Shown in pieces: positions 1 to 55,651 of a DNA stretch of 64,000 bases. The stretch is from an uncultured Erysipelotrichaceae bacterium (lineage in GTDB: Bacteria > Bacillota_I > Bacilli_A > RFN20 > CAG-826). The position numbers were made by a program, and so were the translations under genes. The DNA lies in assembly GCA_902800905.1 (NCBI GenBank), contig CADCGC010000002.1, forward strand, positions 59,774-123,773, written 5' to 3'. The first letter of the stretch is position 1. Every line of letters begins with the position of its first letter. The notes beneath the pieces are model-generated. The model had not been told where the DNA came from. It searched no databases and saw only the letters and a list, made by a program, of their open reading frames with translations.

Positions 1-76
1 AGACCTTTGCTATTCAAGAATATCATTTACCGATATATCACTATATTTGTATGGAATTAGAAAAAAGGATTTGACT

Positions 77-2242
77 ATGAAAAGAAAAGGCAGAGTAACA
101 ATTCCAACGGATGAGACTTTTGTTGAAGAAACAAAAGTTATTGCGGATTTATGGGGCGCTGATGCGGTTAGAGATTGTGATGGTGTTTCTCTTCCAAAAA
201 ACGCCAGAGAACTAGCGGATAAAGTATATAATACTTACTTTGTCGTTAGAGGAGATAATGAATGGGGAAGAAAACATCCAGAAGAAGCTCCTTGTGCCTT
301 TTTGATGTCTACTAAACGGATTGCCACTAATAATCAATTATCGTTTGATGTTCAACGTGGATATCATCCAGATCAAGTTAAACCAGCTTTTGACAAATTG
401 TCTTACTGGCAAGTATTTGATTTAACCGAGAACGTCGAAGTTAAAAACTTTGAATTAAAAGGCGATAAGCTTGTTGTTAATAATTTAAAAGCATTTCATG
501 AATATGTTGTCTATTTCCTTGCAAGAATCACTTGGCATCCAACTCAAGTTTATAATTACATTACTAATAATTGGACTTGTGAAAAGCAGCTCATTTATGA
601 TCCTGCCTATCCAAATACCGCCGAATATATTAAAGAATATATGCAAAAGTGGCTAGATGAACATCCAGAAACTAGCGTTGTTAGATTTACCACATTCCTA
701 TATAACTTTTCACTTTTCTTCAATGAAGAAGGAAAAGAAAAGTTTGTTGATTGGTTTGGTTATGGCTTAGCGTGTTCACCAGCCTTACTTGAAAAATTTA
801 AACAAGAATACGGCTATGAATTAAAAGCTAAAGATTTTATTGATGGTGGATGTTTTAATAATCCATTTAGGCTACCTTCTAAAGAATTTAAAGATTATAT
901 GAAATTCTTACAGAAGTTTGTCACATCGACAATTAGAGGGCTTGTTGATATTGTTCATAAGAATAATAGAGAAGCAATGATGTTCCTTGGTGATGATTGG
1001 ATTGGTAGCGAACCATATGGTGAATATTTTAAAGATATGAATCTTGATAGTGTGGTTGGCTCTATTGGTGGTGGTGTCACTGTGAGAATGCTCGCAGAGA
1101 TTCCGCACGTTAAAATCCATGAAGGAAGATTCTTACCATATTTCTTTCCTGATACATTCTTTGAAGGAAATGAAGAGAATGCAGTTAAGGAATTAAATAA
1201 GAATTGGACAACCGCTAGAAGAGCGTTATTAAGAAAACCATTAGATAGAATGGGCTTTGGTGGCTATCTTTCTTTGGCTGCCAAGTTCCCAAAATTTGTT
1301 AATCGCGTTAGTGAGATATGTGATGAATTTAGATATATCTATGATATGAGTAGCAAATGCGAACCAAAATCATTCTTAACAGTCGCTATTTTAAATGCCT
1401 GGGGAAAGATTAGAAGTTGGCAATCACATATGGTTGCTCATGAATTATGGTATCAACAAATTTATTCATATCAAGGTGTGCTTGAGTCATTAAGCGGATT
1501 ACCTGTTAATGTTAAATTCGTTTCTTTTGATGATGTGATTAATCATGATGTTGATTCAGACATTGATGTCATCATTAATGTCGGTGATGAAGGGACAGCG
1601 TATTCAGGTGGAAAATATTGGAATAACCCAGTTCTTATAGCGAAATTAAGAAAATGGGTTGCTGATGGACATGGATTTATTGGAGTAGGAGAACCAACCG
1701 CTTTCACTAAAGATGACACTTGCTTTGCTTTGAAAGATGTTCTCGGTGTTGATAAGGAAAAAGGATTCACTTTATCTAATGATAAATACAATATCCAAAA
1801 GAAAGAGCATTTCATTACTGACGGACTTGACGATATTGATTATGGAGAAGGAATGAAGAATATTTACGCTTTAGACAACACAGAAGTTCTGGATATTGAG
1901 TTCTCTAATCGGTTTGTAAGAAATGTTAATGTTGGTGAGGTAAAATTAGTCGCTAACGAATATTTCAAAGGTCGAGGAGTTTATATTGCTGGCCTTCCTT
2001 ATAGCTCTAATAATGCGAGATTATTATATAAAGCCTTATTATGGGTATCACATAAAGAATCTCAACTTGAAAGAGCGTTCTCATCTAACAAAGATATTGA
2101 ATGCACATATTATGAAAAGAGTAGAACTTATTGTTTGATTAACAATTCATTCAAAGAGCAAAAGACAACATTCTATAATATAGATGGAAACAAAAAAGAA
2201 GTTATTGTTCCACAAAATGGTATATTGTGGATAAAAGAATAA
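77..2242 (+). CDS. GH112 beta-1,3-galactosyl-N-acetylhexosamine phosphorylase-like (lacto-N-biose / galacto-N-biose phosphorylase family; could also be the Gal-beta1,4-Rha phosphorylase branch)
   Basis: Long ORF with the start trimmed to the ATG at 77 behind AAGGA. The conserved blocks GRVTIPTDETF..WGADAVRDCDGV, VVRFTTFLYNFSLFF, MMFLGDDWIGSEPY, GRFLPYFFPDTFFEGN, GGYLSLAAKFPKF, DIDVIIN and GRGVYIAGLPYSSNNARLL match what I recall of Bifidobacterium LnpA-type GH112 enzymes (~720-750 aa). Confidence 0.72.
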   Translation: MKRKGRVTIPTDETFVEETKVIADLWGADAVRDCDGVSLPKNARELADKVYNTYFVVRGDNEWGRKHPEEAPCAFLMSTKRIATNNQLSFDVQRGYHPDQVKPAFDKLSYWQVFDLTENVEVKNFELKGDKLVVNNLKAFHEYVVYFLARITWHPTQVYNYITNNWTCEKQLIYDPAYPNTAEYIKEYMQKWLDEHPETSVVRFTTFLYNFSLFFNEEGKEKFVDWFGYGLACSPALLEKFKQEYGYELKAKDFIDGGCFNNPFRLPSKEFKDYMKFLQKFVTSTIRGLVDIVHKNNREAMMFLGDDWIGSEPYGEYFKDMNLDSVVGSIGGGVTVRMLAEIPHVKIHEGRFLPYFFPDTFFEGNEENAVKELNKNWTTARRALLRKPLDRMGFGGYLSLAAKFPKFVNRVSEICDEFRYIYDMSSKCEPKSFLTVAILNAWGKIRSWQSHMVAHELWYQQIYSYQGVLESLSGLPVNVKFVSFDDVINHDVDSDIDVIINVGDEGTAYSGGKYWNNPVLIAKLRKWVADGHGFIGVGEPTAFTKDDTCFALKDVLGVDKEKGFTLSNDKYNIQKKEHFITDGLDDIDYGEGMKNIYALDNTEVLDIEFSNRFVRNVNVGEVKLVANEYFKGRGVYIAGLPYSSNNARLLYKALLWVSHKESQLERAFSSNKDIECTYYEKSRTYCLINNSFKEQKTTFYNIDGNKKEVIVPQNGILWIKE

Positions 2243-2254
2243 TGGAGAAAAGTT

Positions 2255-3247
2255 ATGGCAAAAGTTATCAACACAAAAATCGTTAAGAATCTTCCTTGGG
2301 AAGATAGACCAGAAGGATACTTCTTACCTGTATGGAGATACAGCAAGAATCCTGTTATTGACCGTAATGTAAATCGCACAATTGAAAGAACATTCAATAG
2401 TGGATTCGTTCCTTTTGGAGATGGTTTCGTTGGTGTTTTTAGAGGCGACACATATACAGGAATATATAAACTATTCGTTGGTCGATCTAAAGATGGACTT
2501 CATTTCGATATTGATGAAACTCCAATTAAATTCGTTGACAAAAACGGTAATCCCGTGGAAGAAACCCGTTATTCTTATGATCCAAGAGTAGTTGAACTCG
2601 AAGGCTCTTATTACATCATCTTTGCTGATAACTATAACGAAGTAACAATTGGCATTGCTAAAACCGATGATTTTAAAACCTTTACAAAATTAGAATATCC
2701 ATTTATTCCAAACTGTCGTAATGGAGCGTTGTTCCCAAGAAAAATTAATGGAAAATATATGATTCTTTCTAGACCTAGCGATAACGCAGCGTCAATGTTT
2801 GGAAATATGTTCATTAGTGAATCAAGCGACCTAGAATATTGGGGACATCATCGTCTCATTACTAGAAACGGATGGGCTAATTGGAACGGAGTTAAATGTG
2901 GCGGTGGTCCAGTTCCAATTGAAACAGATGAAGGATGGCTCGTTATTACTCACGGTGTTCTTTATAACGTTAATAATGTTGTCTATTCAATGGGGGCGAT
3001 TGTTCTTGATAAAGATGATCCTTCAAAAGTTATTCATAAATGTGAAAACTTCTTGTTAACTCCACAAGCGATATATGAAACAACCGGACACACTCCAAAT
3101 GTTGTCTTCCCTACTAATGTCTTAGTTGGTGAAAACGGCAAACTCGCTATTTATTATGGAGCAGCAGATTGTTGTACTTGTTTAGCTTTTACAACACTTG
3201 ACATATTAATGGATTACATAAAAGAACACGATTGTGTTAACAAGTAA
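2255..3247 (+). CDS. GH130-family glycoside phosphorylase-like protein (beta-mannoside phosphorylase family, DUF377)
   Basis: 330 aa with a PWEDRPEGYF..W.YSKNPV N-terminus and repeated beta-propeller-like blades typical of GH130. It starts 12 nt after the GH112 gene and is followed by a bidirectional terminator. Confidence 0.55.
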   Translation: MAKVINTKIVKNLPWEDRPEGYFLPVWRYSKNPVIDRNVNRTIERTFNSGFVPFGDGFVGVFRGDTYTGIYKLFVGRSKDGLHFDIDETPIKFVDKNGNPVEETRYSYDPRVVELEGSYYIIFADNYNEVTIGIAKTDDFKTFTKLEYPFIPNCRNGALFPRKINGKYMILSRPSDNAASMFGNMFISESSDLEYWGHHRLITRNGWANWNGVKCGGGPVPIETDEGWLVITHGVLYNVNNVVYSMGAIVLDKDDPSKVIHKCENFLLTPQAIYETTGHTPNVVFPTNVLVGENGKLAIYYGAADCCTCLAFTTLDILMDYIKEHDCVNK

Positions 3248-3253
3248 AAAATG

Positions 3254-3283
3254 AAGTCGGAATTTCCGGCTTCTTATTTTTTA
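3254..3283. terminator. bidirectional rho-independent terminator between convergent genes
   Basis: GAAGTCGGAA/TTCCGGCTTC hairpin with one G-U pair, flanked by an A-run upstream and T-run downstream, so it works on both strands. Confidence 0.7.
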
Positions 3284-3579
3284 CTAAAGTAACTAATCAT
3301 ATTCTTTAGTGTGTTTCTTAATATTTTATTGGTTTTCCCAAACTTTCCATACACAGATACATTAACCAAAGCTTTATGGTCTTCTTCACTGATTGTGAAG
3401 GTGAATTCAAAACCATTTTGTTTTGCAAATATTTCAAAGTAATCAGGATTTGGTTCTATTTCCTCAAAGTTACTGGCTTCTAACCATTCCTTTACTAAGG
3501 AAAAACATCTTGGTTGTGATATTTCAACAATGAATGGTGAAACATTAGTTCCTTCTTTTGATTGAGAATAACCGTTCAT
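3274..3579 (-). CDS. small hypothetical protein (~101 aa) immediately downstream of the ABC ATPase gene
   Basis: ORF-track ORF 3274..3624 trimmed to the internal Met at 3579, 2 nt after the ATPase stop. It ends exactly at the terminator hairpin. No recognisable motif. Confidence 0.3.
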   Translation of the reverse strand: MNGYSQSKEGTNVSPFIVEISQPRCFSLVKEWLEASNFEEIEPNPDYFEIFAKQNGFEFTFTISEEDHKALVNVSVYGKFGKTNKILRNTLKNMISYFSKK

Positions 3580-3580
3580 A

Positions 3581-4876
3581 TTATTTATTTTCTTCAAACA
3601 AGACACTTTCTGTTGTGTCTTCATCGAATAGATGGGTTTTCTTTAAATTGAAAACATATTTGTTGCTATCATCTTGTTTGATGTTCCATTTAGCGTTGAC
3701 TTTAATTGAAATTTTTTCGTCTTTGATTTCAGTATAGACAATTCTTTCATAACCAAGAAGTTCAACAAAGTTGCATTTTAGTTCGATTGGCTTACTAGCG
3801 TTTTCTTTGTTTGGGTCATCTGCAAGATAGATATCTTCTGGTCTTACTCCAAGAATTAAATCGTGTTTGTTTCCATTAATAATGCTTTCAACTTTATCAA
3901 TTAACGCTTTATGTTTTTTTAATTCTTCATCATTATCAAATTCGATTGGTTTTTTACGTTTGCTGTTTTCAATCGATTTGTTATATTCTTCAATTTCAGA
4001 ATATCTTTCAGTGTATTGCTTCTTTACTTTTAAAAGTAAATTGGAATAGTAATTATCGTGCTTTTTAATTTCTTCTTTATTCAAAGAATATTCTAAAGAA
4101 TCTGCAACAAGAATCTTACCTTTATCATATGTTACTTTTATGAAGTTCATTGATGGACTACCAATGAATCCGGCAACAAAGATATTCACTGGATGAGAAT
4201 ATAATTCTTCTGGAGTTCCGATTTGTTGAATATAGCCATCTTTCATAACAACAATACGATCCGCCATAGTCATCGCTTCGGTTTGGTCGTGGGTAACATA
4301 AATTGTGGTTGCTCCGACTTTTTGATGAATCTTAATGATTTCACTTCTCATTTGAACTCTTAATTTAGCGTCCAAATTACTTAAAGGCTCATCCATTAAG
4401 AAGACTTTTGGCTCTCTAACGATTGCTCTACCTAAAGCCACTCTTTGACGTTGTCCACCAGAAAGGGCTTTTGGCTTTCTATCTAAGTATTGTTTTAATC
4501 CAAGGATTTCTGCAGCGGCTTGAATTCTTTTATCAATCTCTTCTTTACTCATATGTCTAATTCTTAGACCGAACGCCATATTTTCATATACAGACATATG
4601 TGGGTATAGAGCATAGCTTTGGAACACCATTGCGATGTCACGATCTTTTGGATGGACTTCATTGACTAGCTTATCGTCGATATATAATTCGCCGTCGGTG
4701 ATTTCTTCTAGTCCCGCTACCATTCTTAAAGTTGTGGATTTCCCGCATCCTGATGGACCGACAAAAACAATGAATTCTTTGTCATTGACTTCTAAGTTAA
4801 AATCAAAAACAGCCTGAACATTGTTGTCATATATTTTGTTAATATTAACAAATTTTAAAGATGACATATTTTGCAC
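3581..4876 (-). CDS. sugar ABC transporter ATP-binding protein, MalK/MsmX/UgpC family, with a ~60-70 aa insertion in the C-terminal regulatory domain
   Basis: Walker [11 protein letters not shown]-loop, ABC signature [15 protein letters not shown], Walker [13 protein letters not shown] and H-loop. At 431 aa it is longer than the typical ~370 aa. Confidence 0.9.
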
Positions 4877-4959: not shown

Positions 4960-5382
4960 ATGCTTTATCATGTTCCAAAAATTATTTCTCCTTCTCTACT
5001 TAAGGCACTTTGTGAAATGGGTCATGGAGATGAACTTGTCATTGCGGATGCAAATTATCCAAGCGAGACAAATGGTAAAAGAGTCGTTCGCGCGGATGGA
5101 CTTGGAGGAGAGGAACTCCTTGAAGCAATTTTAGAGTTGATGCCTTTAGACACATATTCTGAATTTAATATGCTTTTAATGAACACCACAAACGGAGATC
5201 CAACTCCAGAAATTTGGGCAAAATATCAAGCAATAGCAAATAAGAAAGACAAGAACACAAAGATTGGATTTCTTGAAAGAAATGAATTCTATGAAAGAAG
5301 TAGAAGCGCCTATGTCATTGTTGCTAGCGGTGAAGAAGCAGTATACGCAAATATCATTCTTAAAAAGGGAGTTATTAAGTAA
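4960..5382 (+). CDS. RbsD/FucU family sugar mutarotase (L-fucose mutarotase or D-ribose pyranase)
   Basis: 140 aa. The N-terminus MLYHVPKIISPSLLKALCEMGHGDELVIADANYP matches the RbsD/FucU family signature. Confidence 0.75.
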   Translation: MLYHVPKIISPSLLKALCEMGHGDELVIADANYPSETNGKRVVRADGLGGEELLEAILELMPLDTYSEFNMLLMNTTNGDPTPEIWAKYQAIANKKDKNTKIGFLERNEFYERSRSAYVIVASGEEAVYANIILKKGVIK

Positions 5383-6478: not shown

Positions 6479-6557
6479 ATTTATATTAGTGAAAGTGTTT
6501 ATAACGATTATAGATGCTTTTTGATATGAAACCATAATGGCAGAAAGGAATTCATTT

Positions 6558-9344: not shown

Positions 9345-11594
9345 ATGAAAACCACATTAACAAACAACTGGAAGCTTTACATTGTAAAAGATTCTGACTT
9401 AAACCCTGATAATCTAGATTTTGCTAAGTATCAGTGTTTTAATAATGTTTCTATTCCAACTTTGTTGGAATTAGAACTTTATCGAAATCATATTCTTGGT
9501 CATCCATATGAATCAACGAATATCTGGAAATACCACAAATATGAGGATTATCATCAATTTTATGTTGTTCATTTTAATTCAAATCGCAAACAAAAAGTTT
9601 TGATCATCAATGGTGTTGACACGATTGCTGATGTTTTTGTTAATGGTGAACTAGTTGGAAAAACAGAGAATATGTTTATTTCATATTCTTTCAACTTGAG
9701 GAATCTAAAAAAAGATAACGAATTAATCATCCATATTTATCCATCTGTTTTAGAAGGAAGAAAATATAAAATAACCGATGACTTATTTGCGTTTAAGTAT
9801 AATTACGAAAGCTTAAATATAAGAAAGTGCCCTTCTAGTTTTGGGTGGGATATTTTACCTAGAACCGCTTTAGGTGGAATATATAAAACCGTTGAAATAG
9901 TTGACTCCCTACCTATTATTGAAGACGTTCATGTCATTGCGGCAAATATTTCTAAAGAGTCTGCTAATCTAAAATTTGATATTACTTATCGTAAGATTGG
10001 TAACTATGAAACAATCATTGAAGGTAAGTGTGGAAAACAACTTTTTTTCACTAGGAGCAATAAAATAAAAATTCATAACCCAAAACTATGGAACATTAGA
10101 GGTTATGGAAAGCCTAATCTTTATAAGATTAAAGTTAAACTTTATGAAAATGGTAAGCTAATTGAAACAAAGTCATTTAGATATGGAATTCGTAAGGTTG
10201 AATTAAAAAGAACATCAACTGTTCAAGAAAATGGTTGCTTTGAATTTTATATCAATGACCGAAAAGTATTTTTGATGGGATGTAACTGGGTACCTGTTGA
10301 AGCAATCAAACACATTGATGATGAAAGAATGCTCGTCGCCCTTAACGCAGTTGAAGATTTAAATTGCAACACAGTTAGAGTGTGGGGTGGTGGTACTTAT
10401 GAATCTGATAGGTTCTATGAAGAATGTGACAAAAGAGGAATTTTTATTTGGCACGACTTTATGATGGGCTGTGCTTCTTATCCTCAGACACCAGACTTTA
10501 AAAGAAAATTAAAAACCGAAATCAATTACATTGTTAAGAAATTAAGAAACCACCCATCTATTTGCTTGTGGGCTGGTGACAACGAAGATGATTTAGCGAT
10601 TAAATATTGGGCGGTTAATAAAAGAAGTCCTAGCACAAACATTTTAACTAGAGAATTGATTCCAAACATTTTAAAGAAAGAAGATAACTATCGACCATAT
10701 TTGCCATCTTCTCCTTATATTGATGAATACGCAGAAGCACATCTAAAAGAACCGCTAAGTGAAGATCATCTTTGGGGCCCTCGTGATTACTTTAAAGGCG
10801 AATTCTATGGCAACGCTGTCGCATATTTTACAAGCGAAATAGGATATCACTCCTTAAGCTGCTTAGATTCTTTACAAAGATATCTTCATAAACCATGGCC
10901 TTTCTTTGAAGGAGAAATTGAAAAAGATCCAAATTCAAGACTACTAAAAAAAGCGAAACCAACAAAAGAATATATGTGTCATGAAACTGTTGCAATGGAG
11001 GATTATGAATCTCCATTTGAATATCGCATTCTTTTAATGGTTAATCAAGTAAGAACCTTATTTATCAATGATTTTGATAATATCAATGATTTCTCTATTG
11101 CGAGCCAAACTTCACAAGCTGAGGCAATGAAATACTTCATTGAGAAGATGAGAAAAGATTATAAACGCAACGGTGGAATTATTTGGTGGAATATTCTCGA
11201 TGGGTGGCCACAAGTCAGTGAGGCATTATTAGATTATTACTTCAATAGAAAGAAAGCGTATGACTATGTAAAGATTTGTCAAAGTAAGAACTTATTGATG
11301 ATGAACGAAGATCCTGATGGTTTAAATCTTTATTTTGTTTCTGAAGATGACAAGAAACATAGATACACTTATGAAATAATTGATGCTTATCAAGATAAAT
11401 TAATCGATAGTGGTTCTTTTGTCTCTAGTCCAAGAGATTCAATTAAGATAAAGAAAGTTAATGCGGCAGAAAAGACATTATTGATTCTTAAATACAAAGA
11501 TGAGCGTGGAAAGGAATGCACAAATCATTTCCACACTCATATCATTGATATTGATTTATTTAAATATTTAGATGCAATGAAAAAATATTATTAA
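9345..11594 (+). CDS. GH2 beta-mannosidase
   Basis: 749 aa. GH2 sugar-binding region with FGWDILPR (GWDW-type motif), NTVRVWGGGTYESDRFYEECDKRGIFIWHDFMM and WAGDNE (acid/base region), as in bacterial beta-mannosidases. Confidence 0.7.
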   Translation: MKTTLTNNWKLYIVKDSDLNPDNLDFAKYQCFNNVSIPTLLELELYRNHILGHPYESTNIWKYHKYEDYHQFYVVHFNSNRKQKVLIINGVDTIADVFVNGELVGKTENMFISYSFNLRNLKKDNELIIHIYPSVLEGRKYKITDDLFAFKYNYESLNIRKCPSSFGWDILPRTALGGIYKTVEIVDSLPIIEDVHVIAANISKESANLKFDITYRKIGNYETIIEGKCGKQLFFTRSNKIKIHNPKLWNIRGYGKPNLYKIKVKLYENGKLIETKSFRYGIRKVELKRTSTVQENGCFEFYINDRKVFLMGCNWVPVEAIKHIDDERMLVALNAVEDLNCNTVRVWGGGTYESDRFYEECDKRGIFIWHDFMMGCASYPQTPDFKRKLKTEINYIVKKLRNHPSICLWAGDNEDDLAIKYWAVNKRSPSTNILTRELIPNILKKEDNYRPYLPSSPYIDEYAEAHLKEPLSEDHLWGPRDYFKGEFYGNAVAYFTSEIGYHSLSCLDSLQRYLHKPWPFFEGEIEKDPNSRLLKKAKPTKEYMCHETVAMEDYESPFEYRILLMVNQVRTLFINDFDNINDFSIASQTSQAEAMKYFIEKMRKDYKRNGGIIWWNILDGWPQVSEALLDYYFNRKKAYDYVKICQSKNLLMMNEDPDGLNLYFVSEDDKKHRYTYEIIDAYQDKLIDSGSFVSSPRDSIKIKKVNAAEKTLLILKYKDERGKECTNHFHTHIIDIDLFKYLDAMKKYY

Positions 11595-13522
11595 TTTAAT
11601 AATATTGCCGCAATTGAGGATGCAAATCCATGATTACAAGAAGCGGTTGGAATATTCTTTTCCCATAATGTTCCAGAGTAACTAGCCATAGTGTAGAAGT
11701 AATCAATTGATTCTTCATACACTTTTTCTTTTTCGCCAATACTCTTTAGCCATAGGAATCTTAAATAGTTTCCTATAAATGAATTGCTTCTTGCTATTTC
11801 TGTGTAAGTGTCTTTTCTATTTGGCCCTAGTTCGTTTTTAATAAATTCTATGAAACGCTTATCGTTACTAATACCGAAGAACAGTGCGTAGTATTGGCAG
11901 GTCTCACTGGTATGGTTCTTTTGAAGAATTAATTTACCATTTTCTCTAACTGCGTTATCAACATAAACTTTCCCGTTAAATGATAGTTTATTGATATTTG
12001 AGGCGACTTCTTGCGCTTTATTTAACAAATTATTATCTCTAAATAACTCTCCAGCCGCTCTTAACATAGATGAGTAAAGCATATTTGTTGGGAACGAAAG
12101 GCCTTTAACATAATCCTCTGTTCCAGCTTCACTCCATTCAACAAAAACCCAGCCATTTAAGTTTTCTAAGAGGCGATATTCGTTTTCAAATTTTTCAAAA
12201 TAATGAATAAGTTTATATATTTTCTCTTTAGCAGCATTAACCAATTCTTTGTCGTTTGTCTTTTTGAAATAGTTTTCTAATTCAAGAACAAACCACATAG
12301 ACCAATTAGGAATGAATAATGATTCTTGAGATGGGAACACCATCGGGAGCATACCTTCTTCGATTTCGTCATATCTAGCGATGATAAAGTTTTCTAAGAA
12401 TTGTTTTTCTATATTATTGTTTTTAGCAAAGAATGATTCTGCCATAGACATAAAGTATCCATCACAAAGCCATCCACCTCTTTCTCTTCCAGGGCAGTCA
12501 GTATAAATGTCAACGGAGTTTTGAATGAATGTTTCCCTTGCTGATTTAATAATTAAATCAAGCTTTTTGTTTCCTGTTTCTTTAATTTCTTTGATAGTGT
12601 CGTTTTGAATTAAGATAAGTGAAGGAACGACTTCACATTTTTTGTTTGTGAGAATTCTTAAGTGCTTTAGGGAATATACAGTTGAAGTGACGACTTCGTT
12701 TTGACCTTTGTTGGATTCCACTGTTATCAAATCCATACAGCTCGATCTTCCAAATATCCATTTCCCATTATCAAGATATTCATCAAAGACAACAAAAATC
12801 TTGGTGTCATCTTCCTGAGCGTTTATTTTTAATTTAATTAGACCACTTTTTTCAATTGCTGATTCATATTCATTACAAATATATCCATTTATTTCATCAA
12901 CGAACTCTTTTTCGACATTAAAAGAATAAAATTCCGGATGGTCATTATCTTTTAAATAATTAGGAATTTTAACTGAATCAAATCCTTTAAATATAAATTC
13001 TTTTTTGTGATTGAACTTTTGTTCTTTATATAAACAAGTATCGCCAATACCTCCAATGAGCGTTGGATTCTCTACTTCATATGTTATAAGCTGTTGTTCA
13101 TTAATATTCGATAAGTTAAATCTTTCTCCAAACCCTCTTTGAAAACTATATTTGAAAGAACGGTTATCGTGTTTTGATGATTCAAACGCTAAAAAGTTAT
13201 CAGCAGTCGCAACAATTTGGTCTTTATAGTAGAGTTCGGCTCCAAAAAATGGTTCGAAGAAGTCGGCGTCTAAAGATGGGCAACCATATGATAAAACAAG
13301 AACTTCAATTTCTTTTGTTCCTTTTGGTATATGTATATTCCTAATTCTTGAAAAACCTTCCGCGGTTCTTTCTGGCCCATATGAAACTAGCTTTCCATCG
13401 AAAAATACTGTATAAAAAGGACCAGCACTTAGACTAAGTATATCGCAGTCTTTAGTTAACCTATATTTAAAATAAACCTTTATTTCGAACTTTTGATTTG
13501 TTTTTGCCCAAACGTGTTTCAT
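11591..13522 (-). CDS. six-hairpin glycosidase-like protein, GH78 (alpha-L-rhamnosidase)-like catalytic domain
   Basis: 643 aa. The DCPGRERGGWLCDGYF motif resembles the D.P.RER.GW.GD signature I associate with the Bac_rhamnosid6H domain. This is from memory only, and the protein is short for a GH78. Confidence 0.4.
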   Translation of the reverse strand: MKHVWAKTNQKFEIKVYFKYRLTKDCDILSLSAGPFYTVFFDGKLVSYGPERTAEGFSRIRNIHIPKGTKEIEVLVLSYGCPSLDADFFEPFFGAELYYKDQIVATADNFLAFESSKHDNRSFKYSFQRGFGERFNLSNINEQQLITYEVENPTLIGGIGDTCLYKEQKFNHKKEFIFKGFDSVKIPNYLKDNDHPEFYSFNVEKEFVDEINGYICNEYESAIEKSGLIKLKINAQEDDTKIFVVFDEYLDNGKWIFGRSSCMDLITVESNKGQNEVVTSTVYSLKHLRILTNKKCEVVPSLILIQNDTIKEIKETGNKKLDLIIKSARETFIQNSVDIYTDCPGRERGGWLCDGYFMSMAESFFAKNNNIEKQFLENFIIARYDEIEEGMLPMVFPSQESLFIPNWSMWFVLELENYFKKTNDKELVNAAKEKIYKLIHYFEKFENEYRLLENLNGWVFVEWSEAGTEDYVKGLSFPTNMLYSSMLRAAGELFRDNNLLNKAQEVASNINKLSFNGKVYVDNAVRENGKLILQKNHTSETCQYYALFFGISNDKRFIEFIKNELGPNRKDTYTEIARSNSFIGNYLRFLWLKSIGEKEKVYEESIDYFYTMASYSGTLWEKNIPTASCNHGFASSIAAILLN

Positions 13523-13523
13523 T

Positions 13524-15668
13524 TTATTTACCTAAATACTCGATTGATTTTAGTGCAGATACTTCAAATATATCGTTCTTTTTTTGAACGAACTCTTTTT
13601 CTGTTCCGTCGATAATTAATGTGAATTTCTCACCTATATTATTGAAAATTTTAATTGTGTCAGGTTTATTCATTTTAATTGAAAAAGACAATTTGTTATG
13701 TTTGATTTCACCAGAAACTTTGTGATTATTAAAAATCGTTAATTTTTTAAAATAAACGTGATTTTCCGATAATTTTTTTGCAATTGCTGGGAAAATTGTT
13801 AAAATCTGTCCGCTTGTTCTTATCATCATATCTGTGATTGATCTTACAAAACCAACATTTGCTTCTAGGGTAAATGCGTATGATTGCAGTTCACTATATC
13901 CTTTATGATTATAGTCCATATTCATGTGGAAACAGTTGTCGTTAATAAAGCCGTCCACAAATGCATGTGTAAACTTATAAGCATCTTCTCCTAAACACAG
14001 ATAACTCGCTAAAGAAGATGCCTCGGTAAATGAGAATCCAGCCCATTCGCTTGTGCCAATATTTATTAACCTATTATAATCTTTAAATATTTGATTATAT
14101 TGATCATATGGTAGAACGTTTTCAAAGTTCTTATGTGAGAGAATATGAGAAAAATGTCTATGAGAAATTGAATACTCTAATTTTTTTGAAATCATTGTTT
14201 CTCCATTTATATTTTTTAAGTAATCTCTCAAGCTTGATTGTCGACCAAGATAATAGTTTGAATCTAAGCCTAGGATTTTTGAATATTCGACTAATGTTCT
14301 ATATAGATAGTGTAGTGTTGATAATTCAAAGTTGCTTTGACTATCTAATATCGAGTTTTTGTTGCAATCGTTTATTTCTGGAGAAGCAGAAAACTCAAAT
14401 TGCAAGTGCCCATCTTTCTCAACTAACAAAGACGATATACATTTTTCAATATTTGAAAAGAATGGAAACGCTCTGTTTTTTAAGAATGATTTATTTCCTG
14501 TGTAGCGATAATAGTTATCAAACGAAGAAGAAATCCAAATTGAGTTACATGGATTAAGAGCGTACATAGGCCATCCACCTAGTGGAGTGCAGTTTTGGCT
14601 CATTACTCCAGGAATGAAATAGCCATCTGCATTACAAAACTTCTTAGCGAGCTTTTTAAATTTGGTTCTATTGTTCCATAAATAATCAACCAGCACTTTT
14701 CCTTCTTTGAAGTCACCGGTCTTCATATATGATTCATACGACATCTGAAGATTGATATCCATATGGTAATCACCTTTCCACGGAGGAAGATTACCGTCGT
14801 TTCTAGTCCAAACACCTTCTAAAGACATCGGATATTTTCTTCTGCTATTGCACGCAAAGAAATAACGACCGAAATTGTATGTTCGGTCAATTTTTTCATC
14901 ACCAGTAAAAACTAATGCATGATTGAAATATCTACGCCAATATCTGCTGTGCTCTTTTTTATATATTTCTTTTTCTTTTGAATAGGATACTAAAAGAGAT
15001 TTTGCATCTTCTAAACTGCATTCGTCAGATTTAAAAACTGTTACAAATAATGTATCAAATAGTTGTCCCTTTACATTATATGAAACGATACCGTAATTAT
15101 AATTACATGGGGTTTCTTGCATGATATACCTAAAATTTTTATCGGTGTATTCTTTAAAAATTGGGTATGAAAGACCATTTGTTTTTCTTGATAAGTATTC
15201 GGGCATTTTGAACGTGAATGTTAAGCCTTTTGGATAATTGATGATTAGGACGTCTTTATTCGCATCAAGATATCCGTCAAATAATCCTGTTAAAGATTTG
15301 ACTTTGTATTCTGCTCTTTTTATATCGACACAAAATCTACTTCTTTTTGAGATTTGGTTATCAAAAACAATCGATCCAGCATTAAGCTTTGTCGGATATG
15401 GGTGATTATAGCAACCATCAAACAGCCTTAAATATTCATCCCAATCGGCTTTCATGAGTCGAACCATATCGTGGTATGTGAATTGTTTTGATTTCATCTC
15501 TGGTGTTAAACGGTTATCCCAAAGGTCAATTCTATCTAAAGAAAAAACAATGTCTTTTTCTCCATAAATCAGAGCGCCAAAAAAGCCATTTCCAACCATT
15601 AAGCCTTGATGCCACTCTTTAATTGGACCGTTAACTGTATGTTGATAAATTAGTGATTTGCAATCCAT
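13524..15668 (-). CDS. GH95-like glycosidase (alpha-L-fucosidase/alpha-L-galactosidase family)
   Basis: 714 aa. The N-terminus EWHQGLMVGNGFFGALIYG..VFSLDRIDLWD resembles the GH95 N-domain signature (W..ALPIGNG.LGAM.FG..E...LNE.TLW). It lies 1 nt upstream of the GH78-like gene in the same orientation. Confidence 0.45.
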   Translation of the reverse strand: MDCKSLIYQHTVNGPIKEWHQGLMVGNGFFGALIYGEKDIVFSLDRIDLWDNRLTPEMKSKQFTYHDMVRLMKADWDEYLRLFDGCYNHPYPTKLNAGSIVFDNQISKRSRFCVDIKRAEYKVKSLTGLFDGYLDANKDVLIINYPKGLTFTFKMPEYLSRKTNGLSYPIFKEYTDKNFRYIMQETPCNYNYGIVSYNVKGQLFDTLFVTVFKSDECSLEDAKSLLVSYSKEKEIYKKEHSRYWRRYFNHALVFTGDEKIDRTYNFGRYFFACNSRRKYPMSLEGVWTRNDGNLPPWKGDYHMDINLQMSYESYMKTGDFKEGKVLVDYLWNNRTKFKKLAKKFCNADGYFIPGVMSQNCTPLGGWPMYALNPCNSIWISSSFDNYYRYTGNKSFLKNRAFPFFSNIEKCISSLLVEKDGHLQFEFSASPEINDCNKNSILDSQSNFELSTLHYLYRTLVEYSKILGLDSNYYLGRQSSLRDYLKNINGETMISKKLEYSISHRHFSHILSHKNFENVLPYDQYNQIFKDYNRLINIGTSEWAGFSFTEASSLASYLCLGEDAYKFTHAFVDGFINDNCFHMNMDYNHKGYSELQSYAFTLEANVGFVRSITDMMIRTSGQILTIFPAIAKKLSENHVYFKKLTIFNNHKVSGEIKHNKLSFSIKMNKPDTIKIFNNIGEKFTLIIDGTEKEFVQKKNDIFEVSALKSIEYLGK

Positions 15669-15803: not shown

Positions 15804-16703
15804 ATGAAAAAAGCTAAACGCAAGCATAATTCTCGTTCTTATCTGCTAACCAAAAGAGAAAAAATCATTTTAGGTATTGTTTTTGTTTTGCTTCTAATCT
15901 ATGCTTTGTCTCTTATTTTCCCATTCTTCTTTTTGCTGATGAATTCTTTCAAGGATGAAGTTGAATATTTTTATGACTCAACAGGTTTCCCAAAGACTCC
16001 AACATTTGAGAATTATATTACTTTATTTAGTGGTTATAAGGTTGGAACAGGTATTGGTGATGGCGAAGCCACTATTGGAGAGATGTTCTGGAATTCTATC
16101 TCACTAGCGGTTGTTGAAACAGTCACATCAATGTTCTTTACTTGCTGTGCAGCTTATGTTTTAGCAAAATACAAATTCCCGGGAAATAAATTCTTATACA
16201 CCTTTGTTATTGTTAGCTCTGTTGTTCCTACCATTGCAGCTATTTCTGCTACATATCGATTGATGTCAGATATTCAATTAATTGGAACATTTATTGGAAT
16301 GATTATTATGAACTGTGGCGCCTTTACTGGTGGGTTCTTATATATTCACAGCTATTTCAAGAGTATCCCTTGGTCATTTGCGGAATCTGCGATGATTGAT
16401 GGGGCAAGTGATTTTAAAATTTTCTTTAGAATTATGATTCCAATGGCGAAGAACGGAATCCTTACTTTCACTATTTTGAGATTTTTGGGATTTTGGAACG
16501 AATATTGGATTCCATATTTGTTCTATCCAAACCATCCAACTTTAGGTGTTGGATTGACTCTTTTAAAAGCAGAAGCTGTTAATACAGGTAGTTACACGAT
16601 GTTATTTGCTGCAATGATCGTGGCAATCGTTCCTATTTTGATTTTCTACGCTATATTCCAAAAACAATTATTATCAAATACTATCGACGGAGGATTGAAA
16701 TAA
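15804..16703 (+). CDS. carbohydrate ABC transporter permease (MalG/AraQ/LplC-like)
   Basis: 6 TM helices. EAA loop ESAMIDGASDFKIFFRIMIPMAKNG. Confidence 0.8.
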   Translation: MKKAKRKHNSRSYLLTKREKIILGIVFVLLLIYALSLIFPFFFLLMNSFKDEVEYFYDSTGFPKTPTFENYITLFSGYKVGTGIGDGEATIGEMFWNSISLAVVETVTSMFFTCCAAYVLAKYKFPGNKFLYTFVIVSSVVPTIAAISATYRLMSDIQLIGTFIGMIIMNCGAFTGGFLYIHSYFKSIPWSFAESAMIDGASDFKIFFRIMIPMAKNGILTFTILRFLGFWNEYWIPYLFYPNHPTLGVGLTLLKAEAVNTGSYTMLFAAMIVAIVPILIFYAIFQKQLLSNTIDGGLK

Positions 16704-16710
16704 TTAAGTT

Positions 16711-17625
16711 ATGAATGTCCAAGTGTTGAATAAGAAAAAGAAGAAAAAGATTAACGTTAGGCGAGCGCTTTTTATCGCTGGAATGTTAGCGATTCCACTC
16801 ATTCAATTTGGAATATTCTTTGTTTATGTAAATATCAATTCTATCTTGTTGACATTTAGAGTTGTTGATCCAATCACTGGTACATACGGATGGGGACTAG
16901 ACAATTATCAAGACTTCTTCTATCGATTCACTGAATATCCTGATTACAAAGATGCGATATTTAATTCGTTGATGTTTGGTCTTAATGATTTGCTCCTTGT
17001 TTTGATATCTCTTGTTTTAGCGTATTTCTTCTTTAAGAGAATACCTGGCACTCAATTCTTTAGAATTATATTCTTCTTACCATCTATTATCTCTATTGTT
17101 ATTTATACAATGGCGTATTCATTGATGTTTAAGGCTGGCTCAGGTCCAATCAACGTTTTAATTACTTCTTTAGGAGGAGAGGAGCCAGATTGGCTACTTG
17201 ATGAAAACCTAGCAAGAATGCTTGTTATGATTTATTGTTTGTGGGTTGGTACCGGATATAACATTTTGATTTTTGGTGGTGCGATGGCAAACATCAATAC
17301 TGAAGTTATTGAGTACGCTAAACTCGACGGTGTCGGCATGTTTAGAGAATTATTCCAAGTTATTCTCCCGATGATTTGGCCAACACTATCGGTTGCATTC
17401 ATTGGTAGTGTTACTACTGTCTTTACATTATTTATTCAAGTTAAATTAATCGTTGGTGATTCGTTTGGAACACCTCGAACAATCGCATTCTTGATTAACG
17501 ACAATGTTATGAGTAATCAGGAAAAAGCCGCCACAATTGGTATTATTTTCACCGTTGTTGCTACCCCGGTTATTTTACTTGTCAGAAAACTTATTGATTA
17601 CGTTGGAAAGAAATTTGGTTATTGA
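16711..17625 (+). CDS. carbohydrate ABC transporter permease (MalF/AraP/LplB-like)
   Basis: EAA loop EYAKLDGVGMFRELFQVILPMIWP. Multiple TM helices. Confidence 0.8.
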   Translation: MNVQVLNKKKKKKINVRRALFIAGMLAIPLIQFGIFFVYVNINSILLTFRVVDPITGTYGWGLDNYQDFFYRFTEYPDYKDAIFNSLMFGLNDLLLVLISLVLAYFFFKRIPGTQFFRIIFFLPSIISIVIYTMAYSLMFKAGSGPINVLITSLGGEEPDWLLDENLARMLVMIYCLWVGTGYNILIFGGAMANINTEVIEYAKLDGVGMFRELFQVILPMIWPTLSVAFIGSVTTVFTLFIQVKLIVGDSFGTPRTIAFLINDNVMSNQEKAATIGIIFTVVATPVILLVRKLIDYVGKKFGY

Positions 17626-17646
17626 TATAAATTGGAGGCCATATTT

Positions 17647-21430: not shown

Positions 21431-21444
21431 AGGAGTTAATCAAA

Positions 21445-51708: not shown

Positions 51709-51709
51709 G

Positions 51710-55642: not shown

Positions 55643-55651
55643 ATAAAAGAC

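What the first reader, a model, noticed from the sequence alone, without database searches (positions are those of the whole stretch)
77..3283. GH112 plus GH130 phosphorylase operon: a phosphorolytic route for Gal-beta1,3-HexNAc and beta-mannosides
Two glycoside phosphorylases from different families are co-transcribed and terminated by a clean bidirectional hairpin. GH112 is the signature enzyme of the bifidobacterial GNB/LNB pathway (mucin core-1 and human-milk type-1 chains). GH130 enzymes phosphorolyse beta-mannosides such as Man-beta1,4-GlcNAc from N-glycan cores. The same window also encodes a GH2 beta-mannosidase, a GH95-like fucosidase, a FucU mutarotase, a NahK-like kinase (61288-62343) and a phosphohexomutase (63481 onward). 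Together these would close the pathway from Gal-1-P, GlcNAc or Man-1-P to glycolysis. This points to energy-saving host-glycan catabolism in an organism that is likely a reduced-genome commensal or pathogen.
Basis: partly seen in the sequence, partly recalled or inferred. Interest (0 to 1): 0.6.

Follow-up and report, generated by a model that had tools for sequence, protein, structure and literature searches.

The report
Two sugar phosphorylases in one operon
An uncultured rumen bacterium carries two well-known energy-saving sugar-splitting enzymes (GH112 and GH130) side by side in one operon; the gene calls are right, but the pairing is peculiar to this species and the claimed host-glycan diet is not shown.

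Summary
Window 77-2242 encodes a complete GH112 phosphorylase and 2255-3247 a GH130 phosphorylase. They are 12 nt apart, and a strong bidirectional terminator follows at 3253-3273. The window cuts the operon. In six independent metagenome assemblies a GDSL esterase gene and a ROK-kinase/SIS-isomerase fusion gene lie directly upstream, and the fusion gene's stop codon is window 72-74.

GH112 groups with the characterised Bifidobacterium Gal-beta1,3-HexNAc phosphorylase (100/100 bootstraps), not with the other half of the family. GH130 keeps all phosphorolysis residues and the Tyr/Arg pair diagnostic of beta-1,4-mannosides. However, it belongs to a diverged sub-clade that has lost the canonical acceptor-side loop motif (GHTPFGD), so its acceptor sugar cannot be predicted. 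A second, canonical GH130 lies about 7 kb beyond the window end.

The pairing is not a conserved module. None of 80 metagenomic GH130 loci holds a GH112. Close GH130 orthologues sit beside GH2 beta-mannosidase-like genes, and close GH112 orthologues sit beside a GH95-like/GH78-like pair.

The source is a rumen Bacilli lineage, so plant glycans are at least as likely a substrate as host glycans. These are ordinary new members of known families. Interest is low to moderate.

The parts
1..74 (+). 3' end of the upstream ROK sugar-kinase / GmhA-like SIS isomerase fusion gene (512 aa in full), with its TGA stop at 72-74. It is preceded in the genome by a GDSL/SGNH esterase gene. These are the first two genes of the operon, cut off by the window start.
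   Evidence: Identical contigs L002-L006 show GDSL (208-212 aa), then ROK+SIS (512 aa), then GH112 after a 2-nt gap. The ROK part resembles glucokinase and ManNAc kinases; the SIS part resembles phosphoheptose isomerase GmhA.
77..2242 (+). GH112 beta-galactoside phosphorylase of the GLNBP (Gal-beta1,3-GlcNAc/GalNAc) clade. 721 aa, cytoplasmic.
   Evidence: Family hits. It is 49% identical to B. longum GLNBP over 580 aa. The proton donor Asp313 corresponds to query Asp306. The motifs VRFTTF, EGRFLPYFFPDTF and MVAH are shared with GLNBP and absent from the other half of the family. The NJ split has 100/100 bootstrap support. The N-terminus has no signal peptide.
2243..2254 (+). 12-nt intergenic spacer with a Shine-Dalgarno GGAG at 2244-2247, 7 nt before the GH130 ATG.
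   Evidence: Sequence read.
2255..3247 (+). GH130 beta-1,4-mannoside phosphorylase. 330 aa, cytoplasmic. It belongs to a diverged sub-clade with an altered loop L2.
   Evidence: Family hits. All key residues are kept, in query numbering: R63, Y108, D109, R155, N156, R173, K214, H233, F285, D305. UhgbMP H174 is replaced by A179 and Y240 by V242. The clade-wide motif is RPSDNA..FGN where canonical enzymes have RPSD[NS]GHTPFGD.
3253..3273 (.). Bidirectional intrinsic terminator: a 9-bp GC-rich hairpin flanked by an A-run (3246-3251) and a T-run (3277-3282). It ends the operon on the + strand and the convergent ATPase/116-aa ORF unit on the - strand.
   Evidence: It is the only + strand terminator-like site followed by a clean T-run between the GDSL start and the GH130 stop in L003.
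3274..3624 (-). 116-aa ORF of unknown function. Its start overlaps the 3' end of the ATPase gene by 44 nt. It is called as a gene in all assemblies.
   Evidence: No family hit passes threshold.
3581..4876 (-). MsmK/MalK/UgpC-type ABC transporter ATP-binding protein. It is the probable energiser of the sugar ABC importer(s) of this locus.
   Evidence: Pfam ABC_tran plus OB_MalK; NCBIfam UgpC subfamily at 488 bits. The same gene precedes FucU-RDD in relative L011.
4960..5382 (+). L-fucose mutarotase (FucU/RbsD family).
   Evidence: Pfam 141 bits. The NCBIfam FucU equivalog scores 123.5 bits, below its cut-off of 141.
9345..11594 (+). Cytoplasmic GH2 beta-mannosidase-like enzyme. GH2 is the recurrent genomic partner of this GH130 clade.
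   Evidence: Best PDB match is CapGH2b (9NFE) at 386 bits, a beta-mannosidase of subfamily GH2_13 from a beta-heteromannan PUL. A GH2 lies next to GH130 in L001, L095 and L010, and within 8 kb in L008.
11591..15668 (-). Convergent pair: a divergent GH78-like six-hairpin protein (11591-13522) and a divergent GH95-like protein (13524-15668). This pair is the conserved neighbour of GH112 in relatives.
   Evidence: Pfam hits; weak PDB matches. Orthologues at 61-64% identity abut GH112 in L011 and L013.
15804..22854 (+). ABC importer operon: two permeases (15804-17625), two Pfam-less proteins (774 aa; 493-aa lipoprotein) and a lipoprotein solute-binding protein (21445-22854).
61288..62343 (+). NahK-type N-acetylhexosamine 1-kinase. 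It is part of a separate locus that continues beyond the window: SASA esterase, PGM/PMM, two esterase-like genes, a lipoprotein, LacI, a second GH130 and permeases.
   Evidence: 324 bits to B. longum NahK. Locus layout.

Best explanation
Window 77-3247 holds the last two genes of a four-gene catabolic operon of an uncultured rumen Bacilli bacterium. The gene order is SGNH/GDSL esterase, ROK-kinase/SIS-isomerase fusion, GH112, GH130. A bidirectional terminator closes the operon.

Both phosphorylases lack signal peptides, so they act in the cytoplasm on small oligosaccharides. These are brought in by lipoprotein-dependent ABC importers, which are energised by the convergent MsmK-like ATPase.

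GH112 uses phosphate to split Gal-beta1,3-GlcNAc/GalNAc into alpha-Gal-1-P plus free HexNAc. GH130 uses phosphate to split a beta-1,4-mannoside into alpha-Man-1-P plus a free reducing sugar. Each reaction saves one ATP compared with hydrolysis followed by a kinase step.

The ROK-SIS fusion most likely phosphorylates, and then isomerises, the unphosphorylated sugar that is released (GlcNAc, mannose or glucose). The esterase most likely removes O-acetyl groups first.

What is shown and what is inferred:
- Shown: family membership, catalytic residues, gene order, the terminator and the cytoplasmic location.
- Inferred: the exact substrates, the role of ROK-SIS and the role of the esterase.

The two phosphorylases were brought together recently in this lineage and are not a conserved module. 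The GH130 belongs to a diverged sub-clade whose acceptor specificity is not predictable. The source glycans are unresolved: plant material (mannan oligosaccharides, Lewis-a-bearing plant N-glycans) is at least as likely as host mucin or N-glycans.
For: Family and residue evidence.

Operon structure: the same gene order occurs in six independent assemblies. There is a 2-nt gap between ROK-SIS and GH112, a 4-nt overlap between GDSL and ROK-SIS, and a 12-nt spacer with an RBS before GH130. A single strong terminator follows.

Location: GH112, GH130, GH2, GH95-like and GH78-like proteins have no signal peptide, whereas the neighbouring unknown proteins and the solute-binding protein are lipoproteins.

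GH130 mechanism: the rules (proton donor Asp, Arg/His phosphate site, Tyr/Arg pair for beta-1,4) come from PMC7660257, and all are met.

Lineage-specific pairing: 0 of 80 metagenomic GH130 loci hold a GH112. GH130 orthologues at 65-85% identity sit next to GH2, GH31 or sugar-acid genes. GH112 orthologues at 67-78% identity sit next to GH78-like/GH95-like, unknown lipoproteins, or GH31/GH43.

Rumen origin: the nearest genome is 'Bacilli bacterium isolate ruminal_MAG_143'.
Against: No enzyme activity has been measured. The GLNBP-clade assignment rests on one characterised anchor, B. longum. Characterised Gal-Rha phosphorylases (Cphy_1920, Oter_1377) could not be fetched and placed on the tree. 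Co-transcription is inferred from spacing and the terminator, not from RNA data, and promoter-like matches are no more frequent than chance. The ROK-SIS role is inferred from domain homology only. GalT and GalE, which are needed to use Gal-1-P, were not seen in about 81 kb of sequence examined.
Confidence: 0.8

Rival explanations
1. The operon is a dedicated host-glycan route. GH112 handles GNB/LNB from mucin core-1 or milk type-1 chains. GH130 handles Man-beta1,4-GlcNAc from N-glycan cores. GH95, FucU, GH2, NahK and the mutase complete the pathway in a reduced-genome commensal or pathogen.
For: GH112 lies in the GLNBP clade. A true NahK orthologue is in the genome. A GH95-like gene, FucU and an ABC importer are conserved around GH112 in relatives, which resembles the Roseburia inulinivorans locus with ABC, GH112, GH95 and GH29 (PMC7335108). 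Both phosphorylases would release GlcNAc, which a ROK kinase could take.
Against: The source is the rumen, not a milk-fed gut or a mucosal pathogen. No GH33, GH20, GH18/85, GH29, GH38/92, GH101 or GH136 was detected by Pfam in 64 kb. The GH130 lacks the loop motif shared by the N-glycan enzyme UhgbMP. NahK and the mutase sit in another locus with a second GH130. The GH95-like protein is too divergent to be called an alpha-1,2-fucosidase.
Confidence: 0.25
2. Plant-glycan reading. The locus salvages plant-derived oligosaccharides in the rumen. These could be acetylated beta-mannan oligosaccharides (esterase, GH130, GH2 beta-mannosidase, ROK mannokinase, SIS Man-6-P isomerase). They could also be plant complex N-glycans, whose Lewis-a antennae contain Gal-beta1,3-GlcNAc and whose core contains Man-beta1,4-GlcNAc.
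For: The origin is ruminal. The closest characterised GH130 is the mannooligosaccharide phosphorylase TM1225. The closest characterised GH2 is a beta-mannosidase from a heteromannan PUL. A GDSL esterase lies in the operon, and another lies upstream of GH130 in L095. Plant N-glycans carry Gal-beta1,3[Fuc-alpha1,4]GlcNAc (PMC9522356). GmhA-type SIS enzymes make a manno-configured aldose from a ketose, the same chemistry as Man-6-P isomerase (established biochemistry; inference).
Against: No GH26, GH5 or GH113 mannanase, GH36 alpha-galactosidase, GH29 alpha-1,3/4-fucosidase or PNGase/ENGase was detected in the window. A canonical mannan-type GH130 locus already exists elsewhere in the genome. That makes a second enzyme for the same substrate less likely. 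GH112 has no known role in mannan use.
Confidence: 0.3
3. The GH112 is not a Gal-HexNAc phosphorylase. It acts on Gal-beta1,4-L-Rha (from rhamnogalacturonan I) or another beta-galactoside, in line with its conserved GH78-like neighbour.
For: A six-hairpin GH78-like gene abuts GH112 in L011 and L013 and lies in the same locus here. Automatic names and the TIGR02336 model do not separate the two GH112 groups. The query has Thr where B. longum has Val162.
Against: The query clade groups with B. longum GLNBP at 100/100 bootstraps, away from the other family representatives. It shares three motif blocks that the other group lacks. NahK is present in the genome. The GH78-like protein matches a real rhamnosidase at only 27 bits.
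Confidence: 0.1

Closest known systems
Bifidobacterium longum GNB/LNB phosphorylase LnpA (GLNBP, GH112; PDB 2ZUS/3WFZ) and the lnpABCD GNB/LNB pathway
   Same: It has the same three-domain architecture and is 49% identical over 580 aa. The catalytic Asp313 and surrounding motifs are conserved, and it falls in the same major clade. A NahK orthologue (324 bits) is in the genome.
   Different: It is not clustered with NahK, GalT, GalE or a GL-BP-type transporter. Here GH112 is co-transcribed with an esterase, a ROK-SIS fusion and a GH130. NahK lies 59 kb away in another locus. No GalT or GalE was seen. Thr replaces Val162.
Roseburia inulinivorans HMO/mucin locus (ABC transporter + GH112 + GH136 + GH29 + GH95; PMC7335108)
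   Same: It is a Firmicutes-type design. A lipoprotein solute-binding protein and ABC importer feed cytoplasmic fucosidase-like enzymes, and GH112 finishes the LNB/GNB.
   Different: No GH136 or GH29 was detected. The GH95-like protein is very divergent. A GH78-like protein, a GH2 and a GH130 are present instead. The habitat is the rumen.
GH130_2 beta-1,4-mannoside phosphorylases: TM1225 and RaMP2 (mannooligosaccharides), UhgbMP and BT1033 (Man-beta1,4-GlcNAc / N-glycan core)
   Same: The size is the same (about 330 aa) and there is no signal peptide. The proton donor, phosphate-binding Arg/His and the Tyr/Arg beta-1,4 pair are all conserved.
   Different: It is only 47-52% identical to them, whereas they are 60-67% identical to each other. 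The loop L2 motif GHTPFGD is replaced by A-A-S-M-F-G-N (His174 lost), and Tyr240 is replaced by Val. The genome's second GH130 is the canonical one.
Roseburia intestinalis-type beta-mannan utilisation locus (LacI, ABC importer, acetyl esterases, GH130 enzymes, phosphomannomutase). Recalled from my own knowledge (La Rosa et al. 2019), not checked here.
   Same: The locus just beyond the window end has LacI, GH130b, permeases, PGM/PMM and three esterase-like genes. The operon studied here also begins with an SGNH esterase.
   Different: That resemblance applies to the second locus, not to the GH112-GH130 operon. No GH26 or GH113 mannanase, GH36 or epimerase was seen.

Membership tests
[quoted passage not shown] | Three-domain architecture: N-terminal TIM barrel, central domain and C-terminal domain | tested here: met
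   PF09508 at 575.8 bits, PF17385 at 295.1 bits and PF17386 at 58.3 bits, all full length. TIGR02336 at 868.6 bits against a cut-off of 560.3.
[quoted passage not shown] | Catalytic proton donor Asp313 (B. longum numbering) in the motif FLGD(Q/D)WIG | tested here: met
   Query Asp306 sits in MFLGDDWIGSEPY. The role of Asp313 is taken from Nishimoto & Kitaoka 2007, cited in PMC7896129.
[quoted passage not shown] | Falls in the clade of characterised Gal-HexNAc phosphorylases rather than the Gal-beta1,4-L-Rha phosphorylase clade | tested here: inconclusive
   It groups with B. longum GLNBP at 100/100 NJ bootstraps, apart from 14 other family representatives, and shares three motif blocks. No labelled GalRhaP sequence could be obtained, so the identity of the other clade is inferred. 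Its members include Verrucomicrobiota, the phylum of Oter_1377.
[quoted passage not shown] | Phosphate-dependent cleavage of LNB/GNB to alpha-Gal-1-P plus HexNAc | not testable with these tools
   Needs a recombinant enzyme assay.
Bifidobacterial GNB/LNB gene cluster (GL-BP ABC transporter, lnpA GH112, lnpB NahK, lnpC GalT, lnpD GalE) | GH112 clustered with NahK, GalT and GalE | tested here: not met
   NahK is 59 kb from GH112 and in a different locus. No GalT or GalE Pfam hit was found in the 64-kb window, in the 7.7 kb upstream or in the 10 kb downstream.
GH130 beta-mannoside phosphorylase | Proton donor Asp (UhgbMP D104), phosphate-binding Arg168/His231, and no signal peptide | tested here: met
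   Query D109, R173 and H233. The N-terminus MAKVINTKIVKNLPWEDRPEG has no hydrophobic leader. The rules are from PMC7660257. Absence of the second carboxylate (catalytic base) that marks GH130 hydrolases was not checked separately.
GH130 beta-mannoside phosphorylase | Tyr103/Arg150 pair that marks beta-1,4 linkage specificity (Glu/Lys marks beta-1,2; Glu/Arg marks beta-1,3) | tested here: met
   Query Y108 and R155. The rule is from PMC7660257.
GH130_2 / SSN meta-node C2 (Man-GlcNAc and mannooligosaccharide phosphorylases) | At least about 63% identity links to characterised members, and the canonical loop L2 motif RPSD[NS]GHTPFGD | tested here: not met
   It is 47-52% identical to TM1225, RaMP2 and UhgbMP. 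The loop reads RPSDNAASMFGN, and the whole sub-clade P0001-P0027 lacks the His.
GH130_2 / SSN meta-node C2 (Man-GlcNAc and mannooligosaccharide phosphorylases) | Acceptor specificity (GlcNAc/chitobiose versus mannose/mannooligosaccharide) | not testable with these tools
   The published analysis could not separate these specificities by sequence even within C2. An assay is needed.

The most novel reading that the evidence does not exclude
The window's GH130 represents an uncharacterised sub-clade of beta-1,4-type GH130 phosphorylases found in rumen and gut Bacilli. The sub-clade is defined by loss of the conserved loop-L2 His (motif RPSDNA..FGN), and it may have a new acceptor specificity. Its fusion into one operon with GH112 and a ROK-kinase/GmhA-like-isomerase fusion would mark a previously undescribed cytoplasmic route. 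In that route two phosphorylases and one bifunctional kinase-isomerase process the fragments of a single glycan, for example plant complex N-glycan: the Lewis-a antenna via GH112 and a beta-mannosyl core fragment via GH130.
Probability: 0.2. Interest if true: 0.55.

Novelty: new member of a known kind. Interest (0 to 1): 0.3.

Why it matters
If the assignments hold, a poorly known, uncultured rumen Bacilli lineage uses ATP-saving phosphorolysis for both beta-galactosyl-HexNAc and beta-mannosyl sugars. That is useful for rumen carbohydrate budgets and as a source of phosphorylases for oligosaccharide synthesis (LNB, beta-mannosides).

The more useful leads are secondary:
- a GH130 sub-clade with a remodelled acceptor loop, whose substrate is unknown;
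- a ROK-kinase/SIS-isomerase fusion;
- very divergent GH95-like and GH78-like proteins that are conserved next to GH112.

None of this overturns current knowledge. Both enzyme families, their mechanisms and their use in gut bacteria are well established.

Tried and rejected
Literature not available. I tried to read the GLNBP structure paper and the GalRhaP discovery paper for acceptor-site residues, and neither is held. The solabiose phosphorylase paper turned out to concern GH94, not GH112. A search for UhgbMP H174/Y240 found nothing. Roles of R32, N166, R210, E319, R358, Y362, F364 and V162 in GLNBP, and of H174/Y240 in UhgbMP, therefore rest on my memory. Only their conservation was tested.

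Labelling the second GH112 clade. I looked up source names for its members, but only automatic 'GalHexNAc phosphorylase' names came back. This also shows that TIGR02336 does not discriminate between the clades.

Searches with little return:
- The genome-contig scan with a single protein found only one relative.
- The metagenome scan returned only relatives at 48-55% identity. These were useful for the negative GH112 count but not for the close clade.
- Promoter scans were no better than shuffles.
- Pfam at E<=1 gave nothing usable for the large unknown ORFs.
- The 917-aa neighbour proved to be a repeat-rich InlB-B-repeat lipoprotein, so I dropped structure prediction for it.
- No tRNA and no Rfam family was found in the window.

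Considered and rejected. The 47-2242 TTG ORF is not the real GH112 start, because it overlaps the upstream gene's stop. An alternative genetic code is not needed: TGA works as a stop at 72-74 directly before the GH112 start, and the large ORFs listed under table 11 (TGA = stop) are long and uninterrupted. A chimeric assembly is excluded, because the same order occurs in six assemblies.

Full report
**Observation.** The ORF map shows two adjacent + strand genes. Window 77-2242 (721 aa from the ATG) carries the three Pfam domains of lacto-N-biose phosphorylase: PF09508 (E 5e-173), PF17385 (4e-88) and PF17386 (7e-16). It scores 868.6 bits on NCBIfam TIGR02336, above the cut-off of 560.3, and 709 bits against the solved Bifidobacterium longum enzyme. 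Window 2255-3247 (330 aa) matches Pfam GH130 end to end (E 1e-61). Its best solved relatives are TM1225 (356 bits), RaMP2 (318) and UhgbMP (303). The genes are 12 nt apart, with GGAG 7 nt before the second ATG. Five nucleotides after the GH130 stop lies a 9-bp GC-rich hairpin (3253-3273) between an A-run and a T-run. It folds at -20 kcal/mol on the + strand (z -7.6) and -15 kcal/mol on the - strand (z -5.4), and none of 200 shuffles folded as well.

**The operon is cut by the window.** The exact GH130 protein occurs on at least six independently assembled metagenome contigs. In all that extend upstream, GH112 is preceded by a GDSL/SGNH esterase gene (208-212 aa) and a 512-aa gene with ROK and SIS domains. 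The esterase and ROK-SIS genes overlap by 4 nt. ROK-SIS ends 2 nt before the GH112 ATG, and its TGA stop is window 72-74. This excludes the longer TTG ORF from position 47. Upstream of the esterase is a 245-nt gap and a divergently oriented EAL gene. In the 5.7 kb from the esterase start to the GH130 stop, the only + strand terminator-like site with a clean T-run is the hairpin after GH130. The unit is therefore most likely a four-gene operon. This is inferred from spacing, since promoter-consensus matches are no more frequent than in shuffles. The ROK part aligns from residue 5 with glucokinases and N-acetylmannosamine kinases and has no DNA-binding domain. The C-terminal part resembles phosphoheptose isomerase GmhA.

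**Organism.** The only related species-representative genome found is 'MAG: Bacilli bacterium isolate ruminal_MAG_143', at 85% GH130 identity. Named relatives are also 'Bacilli bacterium' MAGs. Record names of the contigs (STEW19, WILK20, TONG22) suggest published rumen and ruminant-gut surveys, but that reading of the names is my inference. G+C content is 31-38%. TGA functions as a stop. No tRNA or Rfam family lies in the window. 'Reduced-genome commensal or pathogen' could not be tested.

**GH112 subfamily.** The protein is 49% identical to B. longum GLNBP over 580 aligned residues. I searched the 1.84-billion-protein representative library and aligned the full-length representatives with the query, its close relatives and the B. 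longum sequence. Two motif groups appear. B. longum GLNBP, the query and the query's relatives share VRFTTF, EGRFLPYFFPDTF and S-W-x3-MVAH. The other representatives have VRLTSL and E[ILV]RLxPYFF, and lack MVAH. A neighbour-joining tree separates the clade holding the query and GLNBP from the other 14 representatives in 100 of 100 bootstraps. The catalytic Asp313 is conserved as query Asp306. The query and its three closest relatives carry Thr at B. longum Val162. From memory, this position influences GNB versus LNB preference, so it is a lead only. A caveat applies: no labelled Gal-beta1,4-L-Rha phosphorylase could be fetched. Source names do not discriminate either, because Verrucomicrobiota and Kiritimatiellales members of the other group are also auto-named GalHexNAc phosphorylase. 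I rate Gal-beta1,3-HexNAc specificity at about 0.75.

**GH130 subfamily.** The rules of Li et al. 2020 (PMC7660257) are all met in the query: proton donor D109, phosphate-binding R173 and H233, +1 residues R63 and D305, and the Y108/R155 pair diagnostic of beta-1,4 linkage. It is thus a beta-1,4-mannoside phosphorylase by every sequence criterion available. It is nevertheless not a typical GH130_2 enzyme. It is 47-52% identical to TM1225, RaMP2 and UhgbMP, while those are 60-67% identical to each other. Across 120 homologues, the query and the 26 sequences at least 61% identical to it replace the canonical loop motif RPSD[NS]GHTPFGD with RPSDNA[ASGC]xxFGN, losing UhgbMP His174. Position Tyr240 is Val, Leu or Tyr. 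By contrast, 84 of the 93 more distant homologues keep the His. This loop (L2, residues 169-180) folds toward the catalytic site in UhgbMP (PMC12814180). Even for canonical enzymes, the published analysis could not separate Man-GlcNAc from mannooligosaccharide specificity by sequence. The acceptor of the window enzyme is therefore unknown.

**A second GH130.** Extending past the window end shows this order: NahK (61288-62343), a SASA-family esterase, a 558-aa PGM/PMM, DUF4886, an S9-like esterase, a lipoprotein, LacI, a second GH130 and two permeases. This paralogue is 60% identical to TM1225, 56% to the window enzyme, and keeps His174 and Tyr240. That locus has its own canonical GH130.

**Is the pairing conserved?** It is not.
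- GH130 orthologues: at 85% identity the gene is followed by a GH2 (L001). At 79% it is preceded by a GDSL-like gene and followed by a GH2 (L095). At 82% it is followed by KDPG-aldolase, PfkB, FGGY, RhaA and FucI genes, with SIS_2 and GH2 8 kb away (L008). At 76% it follows a GH31. At 65% it follows a GH2. At 64% it precedes an ABC importer. At 59% it sits among housekeeping genes.
- GH112 orthologues: at 76-78% identity they lie in the arrangement FucU, RDD, GH3, two lipoproteins, GH112, [GH78-like, GH95-like, AraC], permeases. At 75% GH112 is followed by Pfam-less proteins and an ABC importer. At 67% it sits between a GH31 and a GH43, with UxuA, GDSL and SDR genes downstream.
- In 80 metagenomic loci around GH130 genes at 48-55% identity, with up to 10-kb flanks, tblastn finds no GH112. 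Seven have a GH2.

The adjacency is real in this species, since it appears in six assemblies, but it is a recent lineage-specific arrangement. The stable associations are GH130 with a GH2, and GH112 with FucU, RDD, GH78-like, GH95-like and an ABC importer.

**Surroundings.**
- GH2 (9345-11594) is closest to CapGH2b (386 bits), a GH2_13 beta-mannosidase from a beta-heteromannan PUL. The next best matches are DtMan and BtMan2A.
- The GH95-like and GH78-like proteins are very divergent, at 74 and 27 bits to their best solved relatives. 'Fucosidase' and 'rhamnosidase' are therefore only family-level guesses.
- GH112, GH130, GH2, GH95-like and GH78-like proteins lack signal peptides. The 917-aa, 493-aa and solute-binding proteins are lipoproteins. 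The 917-aa protein is built of InlB-type B-repeats.
- The design is the usual Gram-positive one: surface lipoproteins and an ABC importer, a shared MsmK-like ATPase, and cytoplasmic exo-enzymes and phosphorylases.

**Mechanism.**
- Shown: two inverting phosphorylases with intact catalytic machinery, co-oriented and tightly spaced with an esterase and a kinase-isomerase fusion, all cytoplasmic.
- Established knowledge: GH112 yields alpha-Gal-1-P plus HexNAc, and GH130 yields alpha-Man-1-P plus the reducing-end sugar. Each saves one ATP.
- Inferred: the esterase deacetylates imported oligosaccharides, and ROK-SIS phosphorylates and isomerises the released free sugar. If both phosphorylases release GlcNAc, the kinase would be a GlcNAc kinase. 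If GH130 and GH2 release mannose, the GmhA-like domain could act as a Man-6-P isomerase, because GmhA chemistry makes a manno-configured aldose from a ketose. A free-standing SIS_2 gene next to a GH2 in L008 fits this idea.

**Host or plant?**
- For host glycans: the GLNBP clade, NahK, and the parallel with the Roseburia inulinivorans ABC/GH112/GH95/GH29 locus.
- For plant glycans: the rumen origin, the mannan provenance of the nearest characterised GH130 and GH2, the SGNH esterase, and the presence of Gal-beta1,3-GlcNAc in the Lewis-a antennae of plant N-glycans together with a Man-beta1,4-GlcNAc core (PMC9522356).
- Against both: Pfam finds none of the expected upstream enzymes in 64 kb. These would be sialidase, hexosaminidase, ENGase, GH29 and GH136/GH101 for host glycans, or GH26/GH5/GH113 and GH36 for plant glycans. 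Several large ORFs have no Pfam hit. I leave the source unresolved, with plant at least as likely as host.

**Verdict.** The finding is real and the family calls are right. Both enzymes are new members of well-known families. The operon is a lineage-specific combination rather than a new system. Interest is 0.3. The most novel reading still open is that the loop-remodelled GH130 sub-clade has a new acceptor specificity, and that the four-gene operon processes fragments of one glycan (probability about 0.2).

Noticed in passing
window 1-74 and L003:6282-7820: The gene upstream of GH112 encodes a 512-aa fusion of a ROK sugar kinase (no HTH domain) with a GmhA-like SIS_2 isomerase domain. A free-standing SIS_2 gene sits next to a GH2 in relative L008 (17681-18304). 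This may be a bifunctional kinase-isomerase for the sugar released by the phosphorylases.
   Followed up: partly
L100:8863-20918 (starts at window 61288 and runs about 10 kb beyond the window end): A second sugar locus with the order NahK, SASA esterase, PGM/PMM (558 aa), DUF4886, S9-like esterase, lipoprotein (692 aa), LacI, a second GH130 (329 aa, canonical loop, 60% identical to TM1225), and two permeases. It looks like a LacI-regulated beta-mannoside importer and phosphorylase locus.
   Followed up: partly
window 6537-9290; L011:5848-8004; L013:5836-8007: A 917-aa lipoprotein made largely of InlB-type B-repeats, with a weak MAM-like C-terminus. Homologues at 33-34% identity lie immediately upstream of GH112 in two relatives and overlap it by 4-7 nt, so they appear coupled to GH112 there.
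   Followed up: partly
window 17632-21430 and 22878-28371: Four large ORFs in or after the ABC importer operon have no Pfam hit even at E<=1: 774 aa, a 493-aa lipoprotein, 396 aa, and 1437 aa with a signal sequence. They could hide the missing glycan-releasing enzymes.
   Followed up: no
window 11591-15668 (-): The GH78-like (643 aa) and GH95-like (714 aa) proteins are extremely divergent from characterised members (27 and 74 bits to the best PDB chains). Even so, they are conserved as a pair abutting GH112 in relatives L011 and L013, at 61-64% identity.
   Followed up: partly
window 3581-4876 with 5386-6450, and 41481-43358 with 43366-44172: A MalK/MsmK-type ABC ATPase occurs next to or near an RDD-family membrane protein twice in the window. 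The FucU-RDD pair is conserved in L011 and L013. The second ATPase is unusually long (625 aa).
   Followed up: no
window 3274-3624 (-); L096:5017-5343: A small ORF (116 aa, no family) starts inside the 3' end of the MsmK-like ATPase gene and is called in every assembly. A 108-aa ORF follows a MalK-like ATPase in relative L096 in the same way.
   Followed up: no
L004:7854-9988; L002:14283-19348: In one assembly GH112 is split into 310-aa and 401-aa ORFs. In another assembly the GH2 and the 917-aa lipoprotein are each split in two. These are either strain-level frameshifts or assembly errors.
   Followed up: no
window 54302-56866; L003:1-5401: Cyclic-di-GMP signalling genes flank the sugar loci: an HD-GYP-type HD_5 protein and a PAS-GGDEF protein inside the window, and GGDEF and EAL genes just upstream of the operon.
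   Followed up: no
window 57025-57522 and 58551-59744 (-): An isolated ORF with a phage MuF C-terminal domain. Nearby is an F420-0:gamma-glutamyl ligase-family protein with a large insertion (397 aa against a 218-position profile), which is unexpected in a Bacilli lineage.
   Followed up: no
window 50413-52150: Aconitase X large and swivel-domain subunits are encoded as two overlapping genes, next to a 683-aa Old-Yellow-Enzyme/pyridine-nucleotide-disulphide oxidoreductase fusion (52159-54210).
   Followed up: no
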